Below, piece after piece: positions 339 to 11,006 of a stretch of 11,006 nt of DNA. The translations under genes and the position numbers were made by a program. Below the pieces are notes generated by a model. The model was not told the origin of the DNA and did not search any database. It saw only the letters and a program-made list of their open reading frames with translations. The first letter of the stretch is position 1; each line of letters opens with the position of its first letter. The stretch comes from Azolla caroliniana (Eukaryota; Plantae; Polypodiophyta). The stretch covers positions 1 to 11,006 of the forward strand of contig JBHGNT010001200.1 in the NCBI GenBank assembly GCA_043228905.1, written 5' to 3'.

Positions 339-1380
339 ATGGCTGTCAGGTCCAAGTACAATGACTGGCGGGATTCCGATAACGGTGAGATATATCCAAC
401 TAAAGAGAGGTACGTCACGAACCAATCTCCCCTAATAGTGGTAATGATGTATGATGCATGCATGTTGATTGATGATTTGTTAAAGGGTTTTCGTTAGAAG
501 ACATTGGAGAAGTTGTGCAACTGACATATCTAAGGGTGGGGAGAGCATGGATCAGGCATTGGTGGTTCATCTGCCTCGGATCGAGCCAATACAGGCCATG
601 GCAACATTTGACGAAGATGCTTCTCCTGCAGGTATGTGGATTTACTCTCGTTGTATTATGTCAATCTTTATGTAACACATACAAAAACAACAAATGCTCC
701 TAGCCTTAGCTCGTTGTATAAGGTTGGAAGAGATGCCAATGGGAACAAGGCCCGTGTTTATATCGTGGTTGAGTATTGCCGCCTCTCGCCAAGGTGGTAT
801 CGCAAAATATGTGACATGGAAACACATTTACGCAGGGCACATGGAATTGACATAGTCCTACCACAAGGGATGTAGATAGAGGAGGATGGTACTCCGGGGG
901 CAAGCTTTAATAACTATGAGCGTCAGAGATCACTCAGAAGATTCATGGATCCTGAAATCAAGTACCATAGAAATCGGCAGTCACACATCCAAAAGTTGAA
1001 GGTTAGGGTTGTTTCGAGGTACAACTCTATTCCGGTGGAACTCCGACATGACACGTAGGCAGAGTTCGTGGCGCAATTTATGGACTACGAGATGACCATC
1101 TACTACTCCAAAAAGGATGAGCGGTTGGAGATGGTGAAGAAGAAGATTGCATTTGGTTTGGATTCTTATGTAAGTATGAACGAGGATTTCATTCTTCATA
1201 TGTGTTGGAGGGTTTATTGGCAAATTTTAGATAGTAACACGCGTCTTATTGTGGTGAAATAGTGTAAGAAGGCGGGGATATCCACCGAAGAGGGTGGTGT
1301 GTCCACTGATGTGGGTGAGGCTCTAAACCCATCTGAGGGTGGTGTGTCCACTCCACCAAGACGGAGACAGCCAAAGATGC
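339..1380 (+). pseudogene. Decayed multi-exon TE-associated gene with a C2H2-like zinc finger and an unrecognised conserved domain (copy 1)
   Basis: ORFs 636-875 and 1068-1262 share one frame broken by two TAG stops: CRLSPRWYRKICDMETHLRRAHGIDI...FNNYE...DPEIKYHRNRQSHIQKLKVRV...LDSY. GTAAGT..TAG intron at 1170-1262, then exon CKKAGISTEEGG. Candidate upstream exons 339-409 and 498-631 have GT-AG borders, but the phase join to the next exon is unresolved. Homologous to the - strand copy at ~10180-10677. Confidence 0.75.
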
Positions 1381-2107: not shown

Positions 2108-2819
2108 CCTCACAACATGAAATGTCTTATATTTAAAACAATCGGTGCAAGAAGCCACAAATGACAAAGCTCATAATGAAGCAAAAGATATAGAATCATC
2201 CAACTTAGAAAGCTCATATTAGAGAATAGGTTATGAGAAGCCATACACAACATATTGATAACGATGAAGTTGTAAATGACATGATGAGGAGCTTTTCAAT
2301 TAACGAAGACCATATTGATGATACCGATGGAAGAACCATCAAGTGTACGAAGCTCATTCTGAAAGCAACTAAAGCCTCATGACATGAAATGTCTTATATT
2401 TAAAACAATCGGTGCAAGAAACCACAAACGACAAAGCTCATAATGAAGCAAAAGATATAGAACCATCCAACTTAGAAAGCTCATATCAGAGAATAGGTTA
2501 CAAGATGCCATACACAATATATTGATAAAGATGAGGCTGTAAATCACATGATGAGGAGCTTTTCAATTAACGAAGACCATGTTGATGATATTGATGGAAG
2601 AACAATCAAGCATACAAAGCTCATTCTGAAAGCAATTGAAGCCTCACTACATGAAATGTCTTATATTTAAAACAATCGGTGCAAGAAGCCACAAATAACA
2701 AAGCTCATAATGAAGCAAAAGATATAGAACCATCCAACTTAGAAAGCTCATATCAGAGAATAGGTTACAAGATGCCATACACAATATATTGATAAAGATG
2801 AAGTTGTAAATCACATGAT
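2108..2819. repeat. 267-bp tandem repeat, about 2.7 copies
   Basis: ACATGAAATGTCTTATATTTAAAACAATCGGTGCAAGAA starts at 2115, 2382 and 2649 (period exactly 267); the last copy stops at 2819. Confidence 0.97.
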
Positions 2820-3143: not shown

Positions 3144-3430
3144 AAATTCAAACATCAAAAACTTCAAAACAAATTGGGCGTAAAACAAAAATTTCCCATC
3201 AAAATCTTGCACCAAAATTCCTAAAAAAATAAAAAATGTCCAATTACACAAAACTTAAAACTTCAAATTACACTTACATTAAAGCTTAAAACTTCAAATT
3301 ACACAAATCTCCAACCACAACATGTTTCTAACATCACAAGCTATGTATTTTTTATTCCGGAGACCAAAAATGCCCAAATTCCAAGTCAAAAAACCTGAAG
3401 ATGAAATCAGAATACATATGTACGCAAAGA

Positions 3431-4660
3431 TTATGGCTCGCGTGGGGATGATTCCAAAATGCAACCACAATTTTTGCAACACTCAACATTTAAGTCCCTT
3501 GAAGTCAAGTTCAAGCCATTGCAATGCAAACATCGAACCTTCTTAGTCTCAACCCGACTTGCACCTCTCTGTAGTTTTTTGGTGTGGGATTTGGAAGTGT
3601 TTGGGGAACTGCCAATAAGTTCTTGCAATATGTCGATTGTCGCTCCTCTATTCACACCAATTTGAGCCTTCTCCATTGGTTTGTTTCAGTGCACGTAAAC
3701 CATACGTCTTTTGTAGTAGATCTACCATTTGTTGTAGATCATCCTCAACATATGATCGTTCAAGGGATCTTAACCCTTGCTCGAGCCATTGAGTAGCTTC
3801 CTTGGTTGTTTGTATTTGAGATGATTCCATGTCAAATTTAGTAGGGTTTGTTTGTATGTCTGGTTCTACTTCTATTTCTCTGATATCTCACATTTGCATT
3901 TGGGCCGCATGATCTATAAATGGTAATGACCCACATATGGTTGACATATGCGTCTCAATGATCATCTGAATTCTGAGTAAATGCTTACATTTACTTGCAA
4001 GGTCTGGGCAATCACATATGAGCATTGGAGCAAGACATTATACCATAGAGTGGGAGTCATCATGCTCAATATTTGGAACCAATATCGAGCCTCATCTACA
4101 ATATCAGTCACATATTTCTCGAATATCCTCTCGACCTCTTTAAGTCTTGACCTTTGATCCCTACAATTTGTACGGTGCGCAAATGTACCACTCTCACATA
4201 TTTCTTGTTATTACATGTACCATTGTATGGCGGTCCCTCCGATGCAAGAGCCAGTTTTATTATTCCCGATTAAGACATGCACAGATCGATAATAGATTGG
4301 TTTATTCTTCCTCTCAAGGCAGTATACTTGATAAATTGCCAATGTCTCTCCACAATATTGGTATCATCAACATGTTTGTAGTTTAATAATCTACCAAACT
4401 TGGGCCATAATTTCCTCCACAGACATGTCAAGCCACACCATCCTCCTTCTATATATTTCTAAACATCAAGTTTGTCTACATATTCTAACTTTAATTCCTC
4501 ACACATCACATTGAACACAGATTCCGTAATGCAATGCATGAATTGACACATTTGTTGATAGAGATGGTTTCTCTCAGCAACACTTACTTTGGGCAACAAG
4601 TTATCTACCCATGATTTTTTGTGTGAAACAAACACAACAAAGTTGGCATTACGTTTGCGA
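3431..4660 (-). pseudogene. Mutator-like (MULE/MuDR) DDE transposase pseudogene with SWIM zinc finger and C-terminal C4 motif
   Basis: Minus-strand translation with frameshifts and stops: LLCLFH/KKSW (MULE CxxH, ~4623-4634), KYIEGGW...WRKLWPKFGR, DTNIVERHWQFIKYTALRGRIN (catalytic Glu motif, ~4300-4365), CDCPDLASKCKH (SWIM, 3981-4016), CLHC-x14-CKNC (3467-3532). The N-terminal extent is unclear. Confidence 0.88.
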
Positions 4661-5049
4661 CCATTGCCCTTGATCTTAGATGTGGTTTTGAATTTTTCTA
4701 ATATGGCTTGTTAACTTTTTTGTGAGTATGCACCTCATTGTTGGCAAGTTTCAAACTTTTATCCACATAGGCTTTTGAGAGGGACATGTGAGATTATGCA
4801 TATTACACAATTTTTGACAAAGATCCTATACGTGCTATATGCATAATTTTAGGCATGGAGTTTCCAAGTTAGGATCTTGGTCTCTTTATTGTCGATATTG
4901 TGGTGGTTTCACCTCACATTTCTTGAGTTGAAACATTTGATACATGTCTATTTACTAAAGAGTCTTGGTGAGGGAACTGTGGTCACAAACGATGCATTTT
5001 TCTAATCTTGTGAAATATGCATTGTCATATCATTATCCAAAAACATTGT

Positions 5050-5345
5050 GCACCCGTAACTAACATGGTAGTGACCAGGCTTTGTCATGTCTAACCAAGG
5101 AACTTGGAAATAACCTATAACCTGACCAATGGATTGGCTAACTTGGCTCAATCCTTTTTACGATATTACTAATCTGACAAGTTGTAGTAACCTAATAGAG
5201 ATCATTATGAACTTGGCATGTGTCATTACTAACTAAACAAGTCCCAATAACCCAGTGAAGATCATTACTAACCTGGTCAATCGTAGTGGTCAATCGTAGT
5301 AATCCGATCATTCTCTAACTAACTTGATACCATGGAACTAGCCAA
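5050..5345. repeat. Degenerate CATTACTAAC(C/T)TG-type repeat cluster upstream of the MULE ORF
   Basis: Variants of (GAT)CATTACTAAC/AACTTGG recur at least five times; exact tandem duplication of TGGTCAATCGTAG at ~5274-5300. Confidence 0.55.
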
Positions 5346-5644
5346 GTGTCGTGGTGCATCTAACTCGGCTCCAAATGCAACACGACGAAAACCCTGAAGG
5401 CATGACATTTTGGCTATTTTTTTAATCGATTGTCTACTACAAGGGTTTAGGAGGGAAGAAAACAGAAGGGCTCAACCATATGTACATGCCAACCACCGAT
5501 ACCTGATCTACTTTGTATATTGTATTTTTCTTATTTGTCTAGAGCATACGCTTTTGTCGGTTCTAATGATTCATGATTAATGTTTCGGGTTTTACGTTGG
5601 GTGAAATGTTGGGTTTTGTTTCAAGGAGTTGTGCATGGGTGAAA

Positions 5645-5887
5645 TTGAAATCTGGTATTGATGTGCATGCATTCAAATAGTTGAAATCTGGCGTTGATGT
5701 GCATACATTAAGGTAGTTGAAATATGGTATTGATGTGCATGCATTCATACTGTTGAAATATGGTATGGATGTGCATACATTCAGATAGTTGAAATATGGA
5801 ATTGATGTGCATGCATTTAAATAGTTGAAATATGGTATTGATGTGCATGCATTTAGATAGTTGAAATATAGTACTAATGTGCATGCA
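5645..5887. repeat. 36-bp minisatellite, about 6.75 copies (TTGAAATATGGTATTGATGTGCATGCATTCAGATAG)
   Basis: Units start at 5645, 5681, 5717, 5753, 5789, 5825 and 5861, head to tail with no spacers. Confidence 0.97.
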
Positions 5888-5908
5888 AGGATTAATGATG
5901 AGGATCAC

Positions 5909-5934: not shown

Positions 5935-6172
5935 TATTCTATTATTGTCTTTGGAGGTCAAATATGACCTATGAGACCAAAAATATTACATTTCACGTGA
6001 TACATGTGAAAGTGAGTAGTGACTCTCAATGAGAGAGAGAGAGAGAGAGAGAAAGAGAAAGAGAATATTATAAAAAGAAAGAGTAAAAAATATGGGAACT
6101 AGGCTTGAGGCGTAAGATTGATGTTGAATCGAATTGGTTCGAGGAGTACAATATGCCTCTATTTATAGGGCC

Positions 6173-6320
6173 TTCAAGAATATTCTTGGAATTTCTAAAA
6201 TGTTCTAGAGTATTCTTGAATATTTATGGATTTTTTTGATAACTTTGGAAAGTTCCAAGACATTCAAGAGTATTCTGGAATATTCATGAATTTTCTAGAA
6301 TATTTTGGGAAGTTCCAAGA
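6173..6320. promoter_or_regulatory. In-register heat-shock element (nGAAn/nTTCn) array in LTR U3
   Basis: 10-bp periodic TATTCTAGAA-like units; perfect six-pentamer HSE TTCtgGAAtaTTCatGAAttTTCtaGAA at 6273-6300; abuts the TATA box. Confidence 0.75.
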
Positions 6321-6362
6321 CCTAGTTAAAATAATCGATGACAATATATAAAATATGTATTA

Positions 6363-6436
6363 TAATAAATATTCCAATGGTAAGGCTTTAACATGTGTAT
6401 AGGTTAGGACTTCAGAGTTCAAATGCTTTTGGGATA
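6363..6436 (+). other. Degenerate tRNA-like / Pol III A-box and B-box segment, antisense within the LTR
   Basis: TATTCCAATGGTAAGGC (A-box/D-loop like, from 6370), TAAC..GTTA stem, GAGTTCAAATGC (B-box like, 6415-6426). Confidence 0.5.
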
Positions 6437-6448
6437 ATATTCATGACA

Positions 6449-6462
6449 TTATCCCTCTCTTT
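6449..6462 (-). other. Polypurine tract (PPT)
   Basis: AAAGAGAGGGATAA on the - strand directly 5' of TGTCATG. Confidence 0.85.
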
Positions 6463-6487
6463 GAATGACGAGTTTTACAAGTTTCAT

Positions 6488-7737
6488 TAGTTAAGGGCTC
6501 CTGCATTTGCAACATTCTTCACCAGTTCCCAAGTGTGGTTGCTTGGAATATATCTCAGCCAGTCCACCAAATAATATAACTTGTTGTGAACAATGTTGTT
6601 CCTTATACTATAGCAACAAACTTGTACTCTTGTACATCATCAAGTTCAACAAGGGGTGAATGTGGTTTAATACGATTTGGAATAGAACTTACCAGTCATG
6701 AAGAGAGAATGATGAAATACTAGATGTAGCTAGTGGCCACGATTGTGGGGGAAAATTAAGACGAATGTTTACATTATTGATTTTTGCATTAATGACTAAA
6801 GGGCTTAGTTGTTGATAATGCAATTTGGCACATGGTCTAATAGCCTTCATATGATGTCATAATAACCATACTCGATCTCCAACTTGAAATCTGGTTGGAA
6901 GTTGATGTTGATCTGCATTGGATTTGTGTGTTACTTGAGCTTCCTTTAGATGAGTGGAAAGTTCTGTCTAAATATGTCGTACTCGATCTAAATGATCATG
7001 AGCACTAAGGTTTGTTGGTAATTTAGGAGCTTCCAATAATCATTATCAAGGATGGTAACTTGTGTATGCATAGAATGGTGTAACCCTAATAGAGGAATGT
7101 ATAAAATGTTATATGTAAAATCTGCAAAATGTAATATATTGGCTCGATCATCTTGTTGATAATTGATGAACCATCAAAGATTCAGCTCTAATGTTTTGTT
7201 TGATCATCAATTTGTGGATGATAACCCGAGAGGAGTTTGCAAGAGACTTTGAGCATTGTGAAGAGATGCATCCAAATTTTAGATATACATTGTGGGCCAC
7301 AATAATTAACGATGTTGTTTGGAAGACCATGGTCACGAAATGCTTCACACATGACCAAATTTGATGTTTCCTCACTAGTGATGTCTTTAGTGTATGGCAA
7401 GAAATGTGCCATTTTATTATATCAATAAACTATTGTTAATATAATATTGAACCCCATAGAATGTGGAAGATCTGTAATAAAATCTAAACACATAGATGGC
7501 CATGGCTTGTTTGGAATTGACAATGGCTGTAATACTCTGTAAGGATGATGTTGAGGCATCTTTGTTATACAACATGCATCACATGTGCGAACATATTCTT
7601 TGAAAAATTCACATAGATGAGGCCACTAGAATGATTGTGTCAACAAATCCAAGGTCTTGTGGACAAACACCAAAATACCCAACCATATATGTATCATTGC
7701 AAAATGTTGTATGACTTGGAGGGAGGATGGCCTGCAC
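6488..7737 (-). pseudogene. Gypsy pol C-terminus: integrase (zinc-binding, DDE core, GPY/F region) and chromodomain, decayed
   Basis: WPHLCEFFKEYVRTCDAC; LQPLSIPNKPWPSMCLDFITDLP; KMAHFLP...HGLPNNIV...YHPQIDDQT; FQVGDRVWL; YYLVDWLRYIPSNHTWELVKNV. Many stops and frameshifts. Confidence 0.93.
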
Positions 7738-8112
7738 TTTTACTAGATAATGTTCCGATGGTCAAAATTTCACATGAATCTCAAAGCTATCCTTGCACTG
7801 TCCATTGTATATGTATATGTATGCATGTCTCACGTAATCTCGACCATTTTGAATTGAATGAATTGATTCGGATAGCAGATGGAGATGCAAATGCAAAGGG
7901 CAACACCCAACACACCACAATCCACAACACAACACAACTTAAAACAATACAACACAAACTTAACACTACAAAATCCTTGCTCTCTCATCATATTCTCTAC
8001 CTCTTCTTCTTCCTCTTCTTTTCCTTCTCTTCCTTCTCCTTCTTCATCAGACTCTTAAGAGAATTGTTTAGCCACTCCAGTCTGTCAGTCTGACAGACAA
8101 AATGGCTACGAA

Positions 8113-8153: not shown

Positions 8154-8234
8154 AACAATCAAGAAAGCAAAGCTCGGCGAACAGTTTTCCCCCTCCCTAT
8201 GTTGTCTTCTTCCAAATCTTCTTCTTCTTCGGCA

Positions 8235-8363
8235 ATGGCCGTAGAACAGAAGCTTGTCATCAGTGAGGAGATCCTTCGTATTTGGAAGACCTCCTCAAGC
8301 TCTCAGAAGCTCCATGTTCAGCTTCCTCCTGCACGCTTCATCTACGAGCTCTTCTGGACTGTG
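8235..8363 (+). CDS. THO2: THO complex subunit 2 (THO/TREX), first coding exon
   Basis: MAVEQKLVISEEILRIWKTSSSSQKLHVQLPPARFIYELFWTV matches the plant THO2 N-terminus as I recall it (ECKYVTEE..RE.K....KL...VP.LRFLYEL.W..VRGEL); good start context gcaATGG; donor GTG|GTGAGT at 8364 (phase 0); alternative in-frame ATG at 8199. No exon 2 found in the window. Confidence 0.85.
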
Positions 8364-8504
8364 GTGAGTGCCTTTCTCCTATTATTTTTACCCTTTCCGT
8401 TGTTCTGTTGTCGCTACTTCTTTTCCCTATTTGTTTTCTCTGTTTGAAGACAAGATGATGGCAGTTTTTAGACTGCGTTGGAAAACATATACTTGATTTC
8501 TGCT

Positions 8505-8995: not shown

Positions 8996-9101
8996 AGAGT
9001 TGTAGTTTTAGTTCAAAGAATGGCCTTGTTCTGGTTCTGATGCTCAGTTGAAACAAATGAGAATAGTAGAAGTGAGCATAATTTGGGTGGGCAGGCAAAT
9101 G

Positions 9102-10677
9102 GTACACATCCTCTTGGAACATGACCATTATGACATCCATATACCAAATGGTCATGATCTCATTCATTTACTCTAACGTCAACATGGAAACAACCACATC
9201 ATGATAAACCACATTGTCATTGAGTGCAAGGATGCATTCGTCGAGGTGCACCTACATGATGACAAACATAAGTAACACATGCGCACTCTTTTGGATCCCT
9301 TTTTGAAAGTATGTTACAAATTTGACATTATAATATCAAGAAGCCTAAAAGCCTTCGTGCCCATTTCACCATAGTTATTTGATGGCGTTGCACGTCTTTG
9401 CATGTAATAGTCATAGGCCCAACCATTGGGTTGCATTGGGATGTTCAAGCCATGTGTCGATCCTTAGTTACGATGCAATGGTCGATCGACATGTTACATA
9501 TCGTATGTATCGCCATATATGCTATATTCTTCAAGGTGTTAGTCACCTTATTATTAAGTGGATTCAAGAGACTATTTGGTTAGTCACATTTGTAGCATCT
9601 ACACTGGTCGCATCTTTGTCCAAAGCACCCAATGACTTGAGTGCAATGTGGGTATGAAGATGTAATCATGCTCAACCACATGTTCGAGGATGTCTTCCAT
9701 CTTAAAACTTTGCTTTTGAAGTTGCACCCAAAGTGGGTCAACGATGTGGAACTTTTCTGACACCTCTTGAGACAATGTGTACTCCATCCACATGGTGAAT
9801 GGACTCGTGGTCTACATGGATGCCATTTCCCCCCCAAGTTGCACATCATCCGCAAATCTGACTCATCCATGAAAACTGCGAGATTGAGTCTTTGACAAGC
9901 AAGCTAAAACCTTTTTCCAATCAACAATGCAAGTATATTGAGTGTTTGACATACAAGTTTTTCAAAACACAATGCTATTACTTGACAAATTGTTTGTTGG
10001 TTGTCATGTCCTATGTTTTGGTGGCATTACCAAATCCAATGTTGTCAGTTCCCACATCAGGTGCACCCTCATTGGAATCTGATGTAATCTCCTCACATGG
10101 AGTTAGGTCCACCTCATTTTGTCTTACAATATTTTTTCCCTTCTTGGTCTAGTTGATGGTGTCTTGTCACATGGTTGGTGTTGTCCACAATAGTTGATAA
10201 AGCACCATCATCTGTTGATATCCCAACCTTCTTACACTAAAAATTTTATGGTTTGACTCAACATATTATAAAAGCCATACCTTGTTTTAGTCACATACTA
10301 ATCAATTTTGAAGTTTCATACTTATATAATAATCATATCTAGATGCAAACTTTATCTTCAACTTGTCTAATCATTCTTTTCTAGAGTCGTTTATTGCTAC
10401 CTCGTGAATTGTGAATCTTGCCATGAATCTTGACTTAGTGTTGTCTTAGAGTTTAATTGTAATGTGTAAGAACTGGGTTGCCACCCTTATCTTAAGCTTC
10501 CTCATGTGTGATTGATGATTTTGTGTGTATTTTACCTCGGGCTCCTTAAAATGCTTTAGTCACTATTGTTGCTCGTAGTTGTTGAAAAATGTCATGCCAC
10601 TATTCTTCTCTATCGTACCTTGTTTCATTTCCTCTATCCTTAGCCCTCTTGGAAACATTATATCAATGCCATGTACC
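9102..10677 (-). pseudogene. Decayed TE-associated gene: zinc-finger tail, conserved domain and Ulp1/C48 SUMO-protease-like domain (copy 2), antisense in THO2 intron 1
   Basis: HGIDIMFPRGLRIEE...FNNYE...EPEVKYTQNHQSHMRKLKIRV...YDYY|CKKVGISTDDG (intron 10237-10325); FHIVDPLW...DYIFIPTLHSSHWVL (His-Trp at 9629-9634); IPMQPNGWAYDYY (Q-x-N-x-x-x-C-G motif with Cys>Tyr at 9413-9415). Confidence 0.82.
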
Positions 10678-11006
10678 TGTCATAACATAGTGACATAAAA
10701 TTAATAGTTGTGAGGATTGAACCTACAACCTCACATCAATAAGATATAATGCTCAATCATTTGGATATAAACATATATTTGTATATAATAGGTAAGTATT
10801 GTATAGTTTAACATATAGTACATTCTAGAATATTCTAGTCTTTAATATATTTTAGAAATATTCTATTATGTATTTTAGACAGATATATTTTAGAGATATT
10901 TCTCGAGTATATTTTAGAGATATTCAATCTTAGAACTTGTATAAATACCTGTAACTTCTTTGCTCCTTTTTAAGGGATTCAATGCTAGTCATTGGCACAT
11001 CAATCT
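10678..11006 (+). mobile_element. LTR related to the 6005-6448 LTR, running off the window end
   Basis: Begins TGTCAT exactly where copy 2 coding homology stops; TATTCTAGAA units; TATAAATA at 10940-10947; ACATCAATCT at 10997-11006 is shared with LTR1 (6115-6124, -). Confidence 0.78.
10703..10773 (-). other. tRNA-derived segment, antisense within the LTR
   Basis: Minus strand TATCCAAATGATTGAGCA-TTATATC ttatt GATGTGA-GGTT-GTAGGTTCAATCCTCAC gives D-arm/A-box, anticodon-arm-like stem and T-arm/B-box at tRNA-like spacing. Confidence 0.65.

What the first reader, a model, noticed from the sequence alone, without database searches (positions are those of the whole stretch)
6363..6448. Antisense tRNA-like Pol III cassette at the start of U3 in both LTRs
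Seen: LTR1 (- strand element) has A-box and B-box-like motifs on + at 6370-6426; LTR2 (+) has a clearer tRNA-like segment on - at 10703-10773. Both lie within ~20-95 bp of the LTR's TG end and point outward, although the two LTRs are otherwise very diverged. Neither is a PBS, since both are inside the LTR. Known: Cassandra TRIMs carry 5S-derived Pol III promoters in LTRs, and TFIIIC-bound B-boxes can act as chromatin barriers. Inference: a conserved LTR module (tDNA-like insulator or antisense Pol III unit, HSE enhancer, TATA) that I do not know to be described.
Basis: partly seen in the sequence, partly recalled or inferred. Interest (0 to 1): 0.8.

Follow-up and report, generated by a model that had tools for sequence, protein, structure and literature searches.

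The report
Backward tRNA relic inside retrotransposon promoter
A branch of plant jumping genes carries a worn, backward-facing copy of a transfer-RNA gene at the outer edge of its terminal repeat, and because an intact relative keeps its two promoter boxes while neighbouring DNA has been replaced, it likely serves as a landing site for the tRNA transcription machinery that would shield the element's own promoter from silencing.

Summary
Observation confirmed. The only two A-box/B-box pairs in the 11-kb window (at most 2 mismatches per box) are the two named, both antisense and just inside an LTR's TG end. The two LTRs belong to separate insertions. LTR1 is the 3' LTR of a decayed Tcn1-type chromovirus. 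An intact sister family (L009-L011; tree support 99/96) has the same module at the same place: exact A box, exact B core, tRNA-like spacing, T-arm and acceptor pairs, then T4 (0 of 2000 shuffles as good). Module and TATA/R region align between the families; the U3 middle does not, so the heat-shock array is not part of the conserved unit. The intact element is predicted to self-prime and has a Pol II TATA, so the module is neither a primer site nor the genomic-RNA promoter. ARAGORN and Rfam do not call it, and its function is untested. Best reading: a TFIIIC-binding, tDNA-like barrier or chromatin opener (0.4). Closest known are the Helenus and Cassandra TRIMs, which are non-autonomous and (Helenus) sense-oriented. 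The scan noted a tRNA-like capture in a fungal Gypsy, but at another site. New variant of a known kind.

The parts
5998..6448 (-). LTR1: 3' LTR of a decayed Tcn1-type Ty3/gypsy chromovirus (TG start at 6448; the 3' end near 5998 is approximate)
   Evidence: Follows the PPT and chromodomain; TATA/R aligns to the intact relative's LTR, z 5.8; end placed by alignment to that LTR's end
6363..6430 (+). Antisense tRNA-derived unit in LTR1 (predicted start about 7 nt before the A box, through the T4 run)
   Evidence: similarity to the intact relative's module z 3.5 with the terminus excluded
6370..6380 (+). A box (1 mismatch), LTR offsets 69-79
6416..6426 (+). B box (2 mismatches; core not exact), LTR offsets 23-33
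6427..6430 (+). T4 run, possible Pol III terminator (weak; chance 0.08)
6449..6460 (-). Polypurine tract directly before LTR1
   Evidence: Sequence; shared with many contigs in runs X1, X5, X13
6173..6305 (-). Two arrays of alternating nGAAn/nTTCn (heat-shock-element-like, label recalled); family-specific, absent from the intact sister LTR
   Evidence: 14 of the window's 19 such 13-mers lie here, 0 in L011's LTR
6160..6167 (-). Pol II TATA box of LTR1 (offset 282)
6123..6140 (-). Decayed homolog of the R-start hairpin that holds the predicted self-priming sequence in the intact relative
   Evidence: Alignment to the L011 LTR
6493..7730 (-). Decayed integrase with SH3 and chromodomain (stops, frameshifts); upstream pol and 5' LTR not found
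   Evidence: Pfam Integrase_H2C2, SH3_Tf2-1, Chromo; tblastn; tree
10678..11006 (+). LTR2: a separate insertion (5' or solo LTR, no PPT before it) in a decayed repeat; runs off the window; family not identified
   Evidence: Sequence; TATA at 10940
10697..10774 (-). Antisense tRNA-derived unit in LTR2: A box 10767-10757, B box 10723-10713 (exact core), T4 at 10700-10697
10818..10835 (+). Short HSE-like array in LTR2

Best explanation
The segment is a tRNA-derived unit lying antisense at the outer edge of U3 in a sublineage of Tcn1-type chromoviruses, and it is likely kept as a binding site for TFIIIC/TFIIIB that would act as a chromatin barrier or opener for the element's Pol II promoter. Steps: (1) Shown: tRNA-type A and B boxes at tRNA spacing, at the same place and strand in LTR1, LTR2 and an intact sister family. 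(2) Inferred: a tRNA gene or tRNA-derived SINE head entered the U3 of an ancestor once and was then copied into both LTRs of every descendant by ordinary reverse transcription. (3) Shown in the intact relative: a TATA box, and a 12-nt stretch just after the LTR that is complementary to the LTR 33 nt past the TATA. Inferred: genomic RNA is made by Pol II and self-primed, so the unit is neither its promoter nor its primer site. (4) Inferred: TFIIIC binds the boxes and loads TFIIIB on the AT-rich tract upstream of the unit, which lies on the enhancer side. In the 5' LTR this puts the complex between flanking chromatin and the promoter. That would matter for an element whose chromodomain integrase is thought to target heterochromatin. 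(5) Possible by-product: a ~75-nt antisense Pol III RNA ending at the T4 inside the LTR.
For: Intact sister family L009-L011 (tree 99/96 with the window integrase): exact A box, exact B core, offsets 65-75 and 22-32 against 69-79 and 23-33 in LTR1; 0 of 2000 shuffles as good. Of 82 Ty3-bearing loci scanned whole, only L009-L011 (one element) have a pair with 2 mismatches in total. Two motifs from that module, searched with a free gap in IMG/VR, hit 70 places, 70 of 70 of them ARAGORN tRNA genes (gap mostly 28, against 27 in the LTR). A tRNA model ranks this module first in 73 kb, with and without structure. Module and TATA/R align between the families (z 3.5-3.9 and 5.8) while the U3 middle does not (z -0.9). 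Other copies in organisms A, B and D share the A-box half at 80% or more; loose ends at the LTR start show near-exact B boxes in B and D. T4 follows the B box in 3 of 3 modules, with none between the boxes. Established: A/B boxes bind TFIIIC, which loads TFIIIB on an upstream AT-rich tract (PMC13578239, section 20); TFIIIB/TFIIIC sites limit silent chromatin in yeast, and tRNA genes insulate in animals (PMC9540200, passages).
Against: There are no functional data: no RNA run held the stretch, and there is no ChIP. The tRNA model scores are weak (12.9 and 9.5 bits, E about 0.1), and LTR1 itself is not detected. Only one intact family was obtained. Its host is not established and may be close to the window's, so the depth of conservation is uncertain. 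Two loose-end rows at the LTR start show no B box, so some relatives lack it. SM-Tcn1's LTR shows none by eye (PMC2864245, supplement S3). The passages read from the plant barrier review give tRNA/TFIIIC barriers only for yeast and animals. In the intact copy T-stem and acceptor pairing is partly kept (11 of 12 pairs, P 0.025), which a pure DNA-binding role does not need. T4 is weak evidence in AT-rich DNA (chance 0.08-0.19 each).
Confidence: 0.4

Rival explanations
1. Neutral relic: a tRNA or SINE head entered an ancestral U3 and rides along without function, surviving because the LTR's outer end tolerates change less than its middle.
For: No anticodon arm aligns in the intact copy and the unit is about 30% G+C. 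Both window copies are decayed. Some relatives lack the B box. Partial acceptor pairing fits a fairly recent origin.
Against: In an intact, high-coverage family the A box and B core are exact while the interior has drifted from any tRNA, and the adjacent U3 middle has been wholly replaced between sister families.
Confidence: 0.25
2. The unit is a self-contained antisense Pol III gene whose ~75-nt tRNA-shaped RNA is the agent: it pairs with the U3 of genomic RNA next to the PPT, or feeds small-RNA pathways, and so tunes copy number or reverse transcription.
For: A box, B box and T4 all lie inside the LTR's first ~90 nt in 3 of 3 modules. The T stem pairs 5 of 5 in all three with different letters (one bulge allowed). 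The intact copy pairs 6 of 7 in the acceptor stem.
Against: Pairing is only marginally above shuffles (P 0.025, 0.08, 0.27). The free fold of the intact unit is no better than shuffles (P 0.32) and is not a cloverleaf. No CAA motif is evident upstream.
Confidence: 0.17
3. The sense strand matters: genomic RNA carries the complement of a tRNA in its 3' U3 and anneals a host tRNA to help minus-strand transfer, as proposed for the tRNA-Lys3-like sequence in HIV-1 U3/R and for Ty3's bipartite primer site.
For: Orientation and place fit: antisense tRNA-like sequence in U3 is tRNA-complementary in the genomic RNA. The HIV precedent was seen as a title only; the Ty3 one is recalled.
Against: The intact relative is predicted to self-prime (typical of Tcn1, PMC6317226), so no tRNA is tethered to the cDNA. 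The families keep the boxes, not one tRNA's sequence. The longest exact stretch among the five best-matching of 251 viral tRNAs was 12 nt; host tRNAs were not available.
Confidence: 0.08
4. Chance or convergence: short box-like words arise in AT-rich LTR ends, for example as binding sites of unrelated factors.
For: ARAGORN and Rfam are silent. The LTR1-LTR2 module similarity is not significant.
Against: A prediction made from the window was met in an independently fetched intact element at the same offset and strand (0 of 2000 shuffles). Its motifs retrieve only tRNA genes (70 of 70).
Confidence: 0.05

Closest known systems
Helenus TRIMs (TRIMp3; Kojima 2024, PMC10886601; main text parts 1-5 of 6 and one supplement passage read)
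   Same: tRNA-derived sequence inside the LTR, conserved around boxes A and B, not a functional tRNA, not the primer; proposed origin by SINE insertion into an LTR.
   Different: Helenus are short (311-1263 bp), non-coding, have a tRNA PBS, and carry the unit in sense orientation (seen in the supplement consensi) as the presumed promoter of the genomic RNA. Here it is antisense, in an autonomous gag-pol chromovirus with a TATA box and predicted self-priming. Kojima notes that 'not a few' Repbase LTRs have tRNA-like parts but analysed only TRIMs under 1000 bp, and argues that autonomous partners must use Pol II.
Cassandra and Ajax TRIMs (PMC10886601; bioRxiv 10.1101/2023.07.14.548913, passages)
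   Same: Pol III internal promoter from a small RNA gene kept inside an LTR.
   Different: 5S-derived (A/IE/C boxes), non-autonomous, and replacing the Pol II promoter; here it is tRNA-type and coexists with a Pol II promoter facing the other way.
Tcn1 clade chromoviruses of non-seed plants (Neumann 2019, PMC6317226, passages; Novikova 2010, PMC2864245, passages and supplement S3)
   Same: Ty3/gypsy pol ending in a chromodomain, PPT, no tRNA PBS, predicted self-priming.
   Different: Neither set of passages mentions a tRNA-like unit in the LTR; the SM-Tcn1 LTR shows none by eye.
tDNA/TFIIIC barriers of yeast and animals, and SINE B2 boundaries (PMC9540200 passages; PMC8136502 abstract)
   Same: A/B-box unit placed between a promoter and neighbouring chromatin; mobile boundary element.
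   Different: Not reported for plants in the passages read; here it would be built into the LTR of an autonomous element. B2's boundary activity is linked to CTCF in that abstract.
tRNA-Lys3-gene-like sequence in HIV-1 U3/R (Piekna-Przybylska et al., PMC2802660; title seen in a reference list only)
   Same: tRNA-gene-like sequence embedded in U3 of an autonomous LTR element.
   Different: There it is tied to the tRNA primer and minus-strand transfer; this lineage is predicted to self-prime.

Membership tests
Helenus / TRIMp3 | tRNA-derived sequence with boxes A and B inside the LTR | tested here: met
Helenus / TRIMp3 | Short non-autonomous element (under about 1.3 kb) with no coding region | tested here: not met
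   LTR1 follows an integrase; the sister element has intact gag and a 1203-aa pol. LTR2's element could not be seen.
Helenus / TRIMp3 | Unit in sense orientation, able to drive the genomic RNA | tested here: not met
   Antisense in 3 of 3; best sense-strand pair 7, 7 and 9 mismatches
Helenus / TRIMp3 | tRNA primer-binding site after the 5' LTR | tested here: not met
   In the sister element the post-LTR sequence is complementary to its own R region; window elements lack a visible 5' junction
Cassandra / Ajax | 5S rRNA-derived promoter | tested here: not met
   No 5S match in Rfam scans; motifs retrieve tRNA genes
Tcn1 chromovirus | Ty3/gypsy integrase ending in a chromodomain | tested here: met
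   Pfam hits in the window (chromo E 0.0027, below the curated cut-off) and in P0278
Tcn1 chromovirus | No tRNA PBS; self-priming complement | tested here: met
   12-nt complement in L011; homologous R hairpin in LTR1
Tcn1 chromovirus | Placement in the Tcn1 clade against named references (REXdb) | tested here: inconclusive
   No named reference in the tree. The window group lies beside a group holding a Ceratodon-linked cluster, with weak support (82/70).
Functional tRNA gene | Cloverleaf with anticodon arm, called by tRNA finders | tested here: not met
Copy-specific SINE insertion | Present at one locus only, with own tail and target-site duplication | tested here: not met
   Same position in a sister family and in other contigs; no tail between the B box and the LTR end (21-35 nt)
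tDNA/TFIIIC barrier | TFIIIC occupancy and B-box-dependent blocking of silent chromatin | not testable with these tools
   Needs ChIP and a reporter
Pol III transcription unit | Short RNA from +1 to the T run | not testable with these tools
   No RNA holder was listed; contigs cannot show strand or ends

The most novel reading that the evidence does not exclude
An autonomous, heterochromatin-seeking chromovirus lineage has domesticated a tRNA gene as a built-in, portable TFIIIC barrier (with or without a tRNA-shaped antisense RNA) that protects its Pol II promoter, and has scattered hundreds of such Pol III landing sites through its host genome. That would be a natural tDNA insulator in plants, where such barriers are not established.
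Probability: 0.35. Interest if true: 0.8.

Novelty: new variant of a known kind. Interest (0 to 1): 0.57.

Why it matters
Small-RNA-derived Pol III promoters in LTRs are described for short non-autonomous elements, where they replace the Pol II promoter. An antisense unit beside a working-looking Pol II promoter in an autonomous, self-priming element needs a different explanation. If it binds TFIIIC, it gives a compact natural test of whether tDNA-type barriers work in plants, and a way for heterochromatin-targeting elements to stay expressed. Each LTR and solo LTR would also add a Pol III site near host genes; this one lies about 1.8 kb upstream of a divergently oriented gene exon. If it is neutral, it is still a marker for one chromovirus sublineage and a possible intermediate on the way to Helenus-like elements.

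Tried and rejected
No whole genome was held, so no family-wide set of copies could be drawn. ARAGORN and Rfam: no tRNA or 5S call in the window or in the relatives scanned. A PPT/LTR-start pattern found 0 places in IMG/VR and 7 in metagenomes; 0 of the 7 carried a pol match, so they were taken as chance. Integrase or pol scans of IMG/VR gave no confirmed loci or only distant Ty3 elements. The representative-protein search gave only distant relatives (best about 43% over the main integrase segment). An automatic PPT locator on 36 loci placed a start in 30, many clearly wrongly, and missed L011's own LTR. None of the 30 had an antisense pair with fewer than 5 mismatches; about 10 starts look real by eye, all with 6 or more. 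This is a weak negative. The moss-type group (P0154-P0175) could not be tested: the one locus, L012, lacks the start of its LTR. A search of 401 cyanobacterial-phylum genomes for stray host contigs gave 4 short chance matches. No RNA holder was listed. A motif search of the Physcomitrium TE paper's supplements gave 0 hits. Rejected: PBS (inside the LTR; the sister self-primes); the two LTRs as one element's pair; HSE as part of the conserved unit; the PPT-replacing tRNA-Arg site noted elsewhere in this genome (LTR1 has a normal PPT). A tRNA-model hit at 6185-6261 (10.1 bits) is the palindromic HSE array.

Full report
Setting. The window is AT-rich plant DNA made mostly of decayed repeats, with one gene exon at 8233-8364 (THO2-like, recalled; no Pfam hit). 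No whole genome was held. Contigs of run X1 match 6150-7991 with no differing letters, so the sequence is real; X1 may be the window's source.

The observation. LTR1 begins with TG at 6448 on the minus strand, right after a polypurine tract (6449-6460) and the chromodomain end of a decayed integrase (Integrase_H2C2, SH3_Tf2-1 and Chromo hits), so it is a 3' LTR. LTR2 begins with TG at 10678 on the plus strand with no PPT before it and runs off the window. With textbook A- and B-box consensi (recalled), at most 2 mismatches per box and a spacer of 28-45, the window holds exactly 2 pairs on both strands: 6370-6426 (+) and 10767-10713 (-). Each is antisense to its LTR. Shuffles of the first 130 nt do as well in 3 and 16 of 2000; the segments were chosen after the fact. 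ARAGORN and Rfam call nothing, so these are relics, not tRNA genes. The LTRs are separate insertions. Their modules are only weakly alike directly (z 2.5 with, 1.2 without the terminus; P 0.53 under harsher scoring), while their U3 middles share an nGAAn array (z 3.9).

Is it family-wide? Contigs from three organisms (A, B, D; none in C) were laid on 6335-6480. In all three, other contigs match the A-box half (6347-6400) at 80% or more. Of the six loose-end rows shown at the LTR start, two (organisms B and D; 6 and 2 contigs) carry a near-exact B box about 15 nt further in, one (A) a degenerate one, two show none, and one is too short; 18 rows were not shown. A homolog search gave intact pol proteins. 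P0176 and P0177 are closest to the window integrase, and a tree of 43 integrase segments groups the window with P0176, P0273, P0177 and P0278 at 99/96. P0278's contigs L009-L011 (one element; gag plus 1203-aa pol) give a 415-nt LTR. It has an exact A box at offsets 65-75 and an exact B core at 22-32, antisense; LTR1 has them at 69-79 and 23-33. 0 of 2000 shuffles score as well. Among 82 Ty3-bearing loci scanned whole on both strands, no other reaches a total of 2 mismatches. The host of L009-L011 is not established and may be close to the window's.

Is it tRNA-derived? Two motifs from the L011 module with a free gap hit 70 places in IMG/VR, and 70 of 70 are ARAGORN tRNA genes of many isotypes. 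The gap is mostly 28 there and 27 in the LTR. A covariance model from 85 of those viral tRNAs (85 of the 98 selected) ranks the L009-L011 module first in 73 kb (12.9 bits, E 0.12; sequence-only 9.5 bits, E 0.09). LTR2's segment comes next by sequence only, and LTR1's module is not found. The training loci were themselves picked by L011's motifs, which favours that result. In the alignment the intact module spans a whole tRNA length, with T stem 5 of 5 (one bulge) and acceptor 6 of 7, and no aligned anticodon arm. With the boxes held fixed, this pairing has P 0.025 in L011, 0.08 in LTR2 and 0.27 in LTR1. A T4 follows the B box inside the LTR in 3 of 3 (chance 0.08-0.19 each).

What is conserved around it. 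Between LTR1 and the intact LTR, the first 110 nt align (z 3.9; 3.5 without the terminus) and the TATA/R region aligns (z 5.8), but the U3 middle does not (z -0.9). In 60-nt sliding windows the module signal is modest (z 2.2 and 0.8) against 5.7 for TATA/R. HSE-type 13-mers number 14 in LTR1, 2 in LTR2 and 0 in L011, so the enhancer turns over and is not part of the conserved unit. In L011 the 12 nt that start 2 nt after the LTR are complementary to LTR position 266 onward, 33 nt past the TATA. This is the self-priming arrangement predicted for Tcn1 (PMC6317226, passages). The unit is therefore not a primer site and, being antisense, cannot make the genomic RNA.

Distribution. Distant Ty3 elements (34-47% identical) show no such pair near their LTR starts, but the locator was crude and missed the positive control. 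SM-Tcn1's published LTR shows none by eye (PMC2864245 supplement S3). The moss-type group could not be tested. LTR2's family is unknown. The unit thus looks like a trait of one sublineage, present in at least two pol-defined families and one further LTR type.

Mechanism. Exact boxes with a drifted interior and a replaced neighbourhood point to selection on the boxes. A and B boxes bind TFIIIC, which loads TFIIIB on an AT-rich tract upstream (PMC13578239, section 20); here that tract lies on the enhancer side and is AT-rich in all three. In the 5' LTR the complex would stand between flanking chromatin and the Pol II promoter. TFIIIB/TFIIIC sites limit silent chromatin in yeast, and tRNA genes insulate in animals; the passages read give no plant case (PMC9540200). 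Chromodomain integrases are thought to direct insertion to heterochromatin (PMC7466625, passages). I put this barrier or opener reading at 0.4, a neutral relic at 0.25, a functional antisense RNA at 0.17, annealing of a host tRNA at 0.08 and chance at 0.05. All functional steps are inferred.

Comparison and novelty. It works like a tDNA-type Pol III unit in an LTR. Helenus TRIMs (PMC10886601; text parts 1-5 of 6 and a supplement passage) are the closest kind. This is not a Helenus: it is coding, antisense and without a tRNA PBS. Cassandra and Ajax are 5S-derived. A tRNA-gene-like sequence in HIV-1 U3/R is known by title only, and SINE B2 boundaries by abstract. Ten full-text searches listed no title or abstract start describing an antisense tRNA-derived unit in autonomous plant LTRs; most listed papers were not opened. 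bioRxiv 10.64898/2026.03.01.708851 (passages) had nothing on it. Limits: subscription journals and Repbase were not searched. Kojima says 'not a few' Repbase LTRs contain tRNA-like parts, and the REXdb sequence supplements of PMC6317226 were too large to read; either may hold such cases. Earlier notes of this scan show no look-alike sequence and one fungal Gypsy with a tRNA-like capture at a different site.

Verdict. A real, tRNA-derived, antisense module at the outer end of U3 in a Tcn1-type chromovirus sublineage. It is a new variant of the small-RNA-derived LTR promoter theme, with an untested but testable function. Interest 0.57.

Noticed in passing
window 8233-8364 (+): First exon of a THO2-like gene (identity recalled; no Pfam hit) followed by a GT donor, about 500 bp from the truncated integrase and divergent to it; a second copy at about 84% protein identity exists (P0003).
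   Followed up: partly
L011 4221-4250 and window 6123-6140 (-): The predicted self-priming sequence at the R start is one arm of a perfect 9-bp palindrome with a 5-nt loop in the intact LTR; L012 has a different hairpin with its own matching post-LTR complement.
   Followed up: partly
L009 whole: Contig is an inverted duplication of the element joined at that palindrome; probably an assembly artefact, though fold-back cDNA is conceivable.
   Followed up: no
window 6173-6305 and 10818-10835: Dense nGAAn/nTTCn arrays suggest heat-inducible LTR families; the intact sister has short GC-rich repeats there instead, so the enhancer was swapped.
   Followed up: partly
window 2108-2819: 267-bp tandem repeat (about 2.7 copies); two units give a weak C/D-box snoRNA match (snoZ105, E 0.87 and 8.4); probably chance.
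   Followed up: no
window 5609-5896: 36-bp tandem array next to GA microsatellites, beyond the end of LTR1.
   Followed up: no
window 836-1314 and 10185-10677; 3400-5100 (-); 9000-10000 (-): Decayed DNA-transposon-like remnants, two of them inverted relatives of each other; words resembling SWIM-finger and Ulp1-type protease motifs (recalled; no Pfam hits). LTR2 interrupts one of them.
   Followed up: no
L012-L087: Many prokaryote genome records hold eukaryotic Ty3/gypsy contigs (76 loci), which are apparently binning contamination.
   Followed up: no
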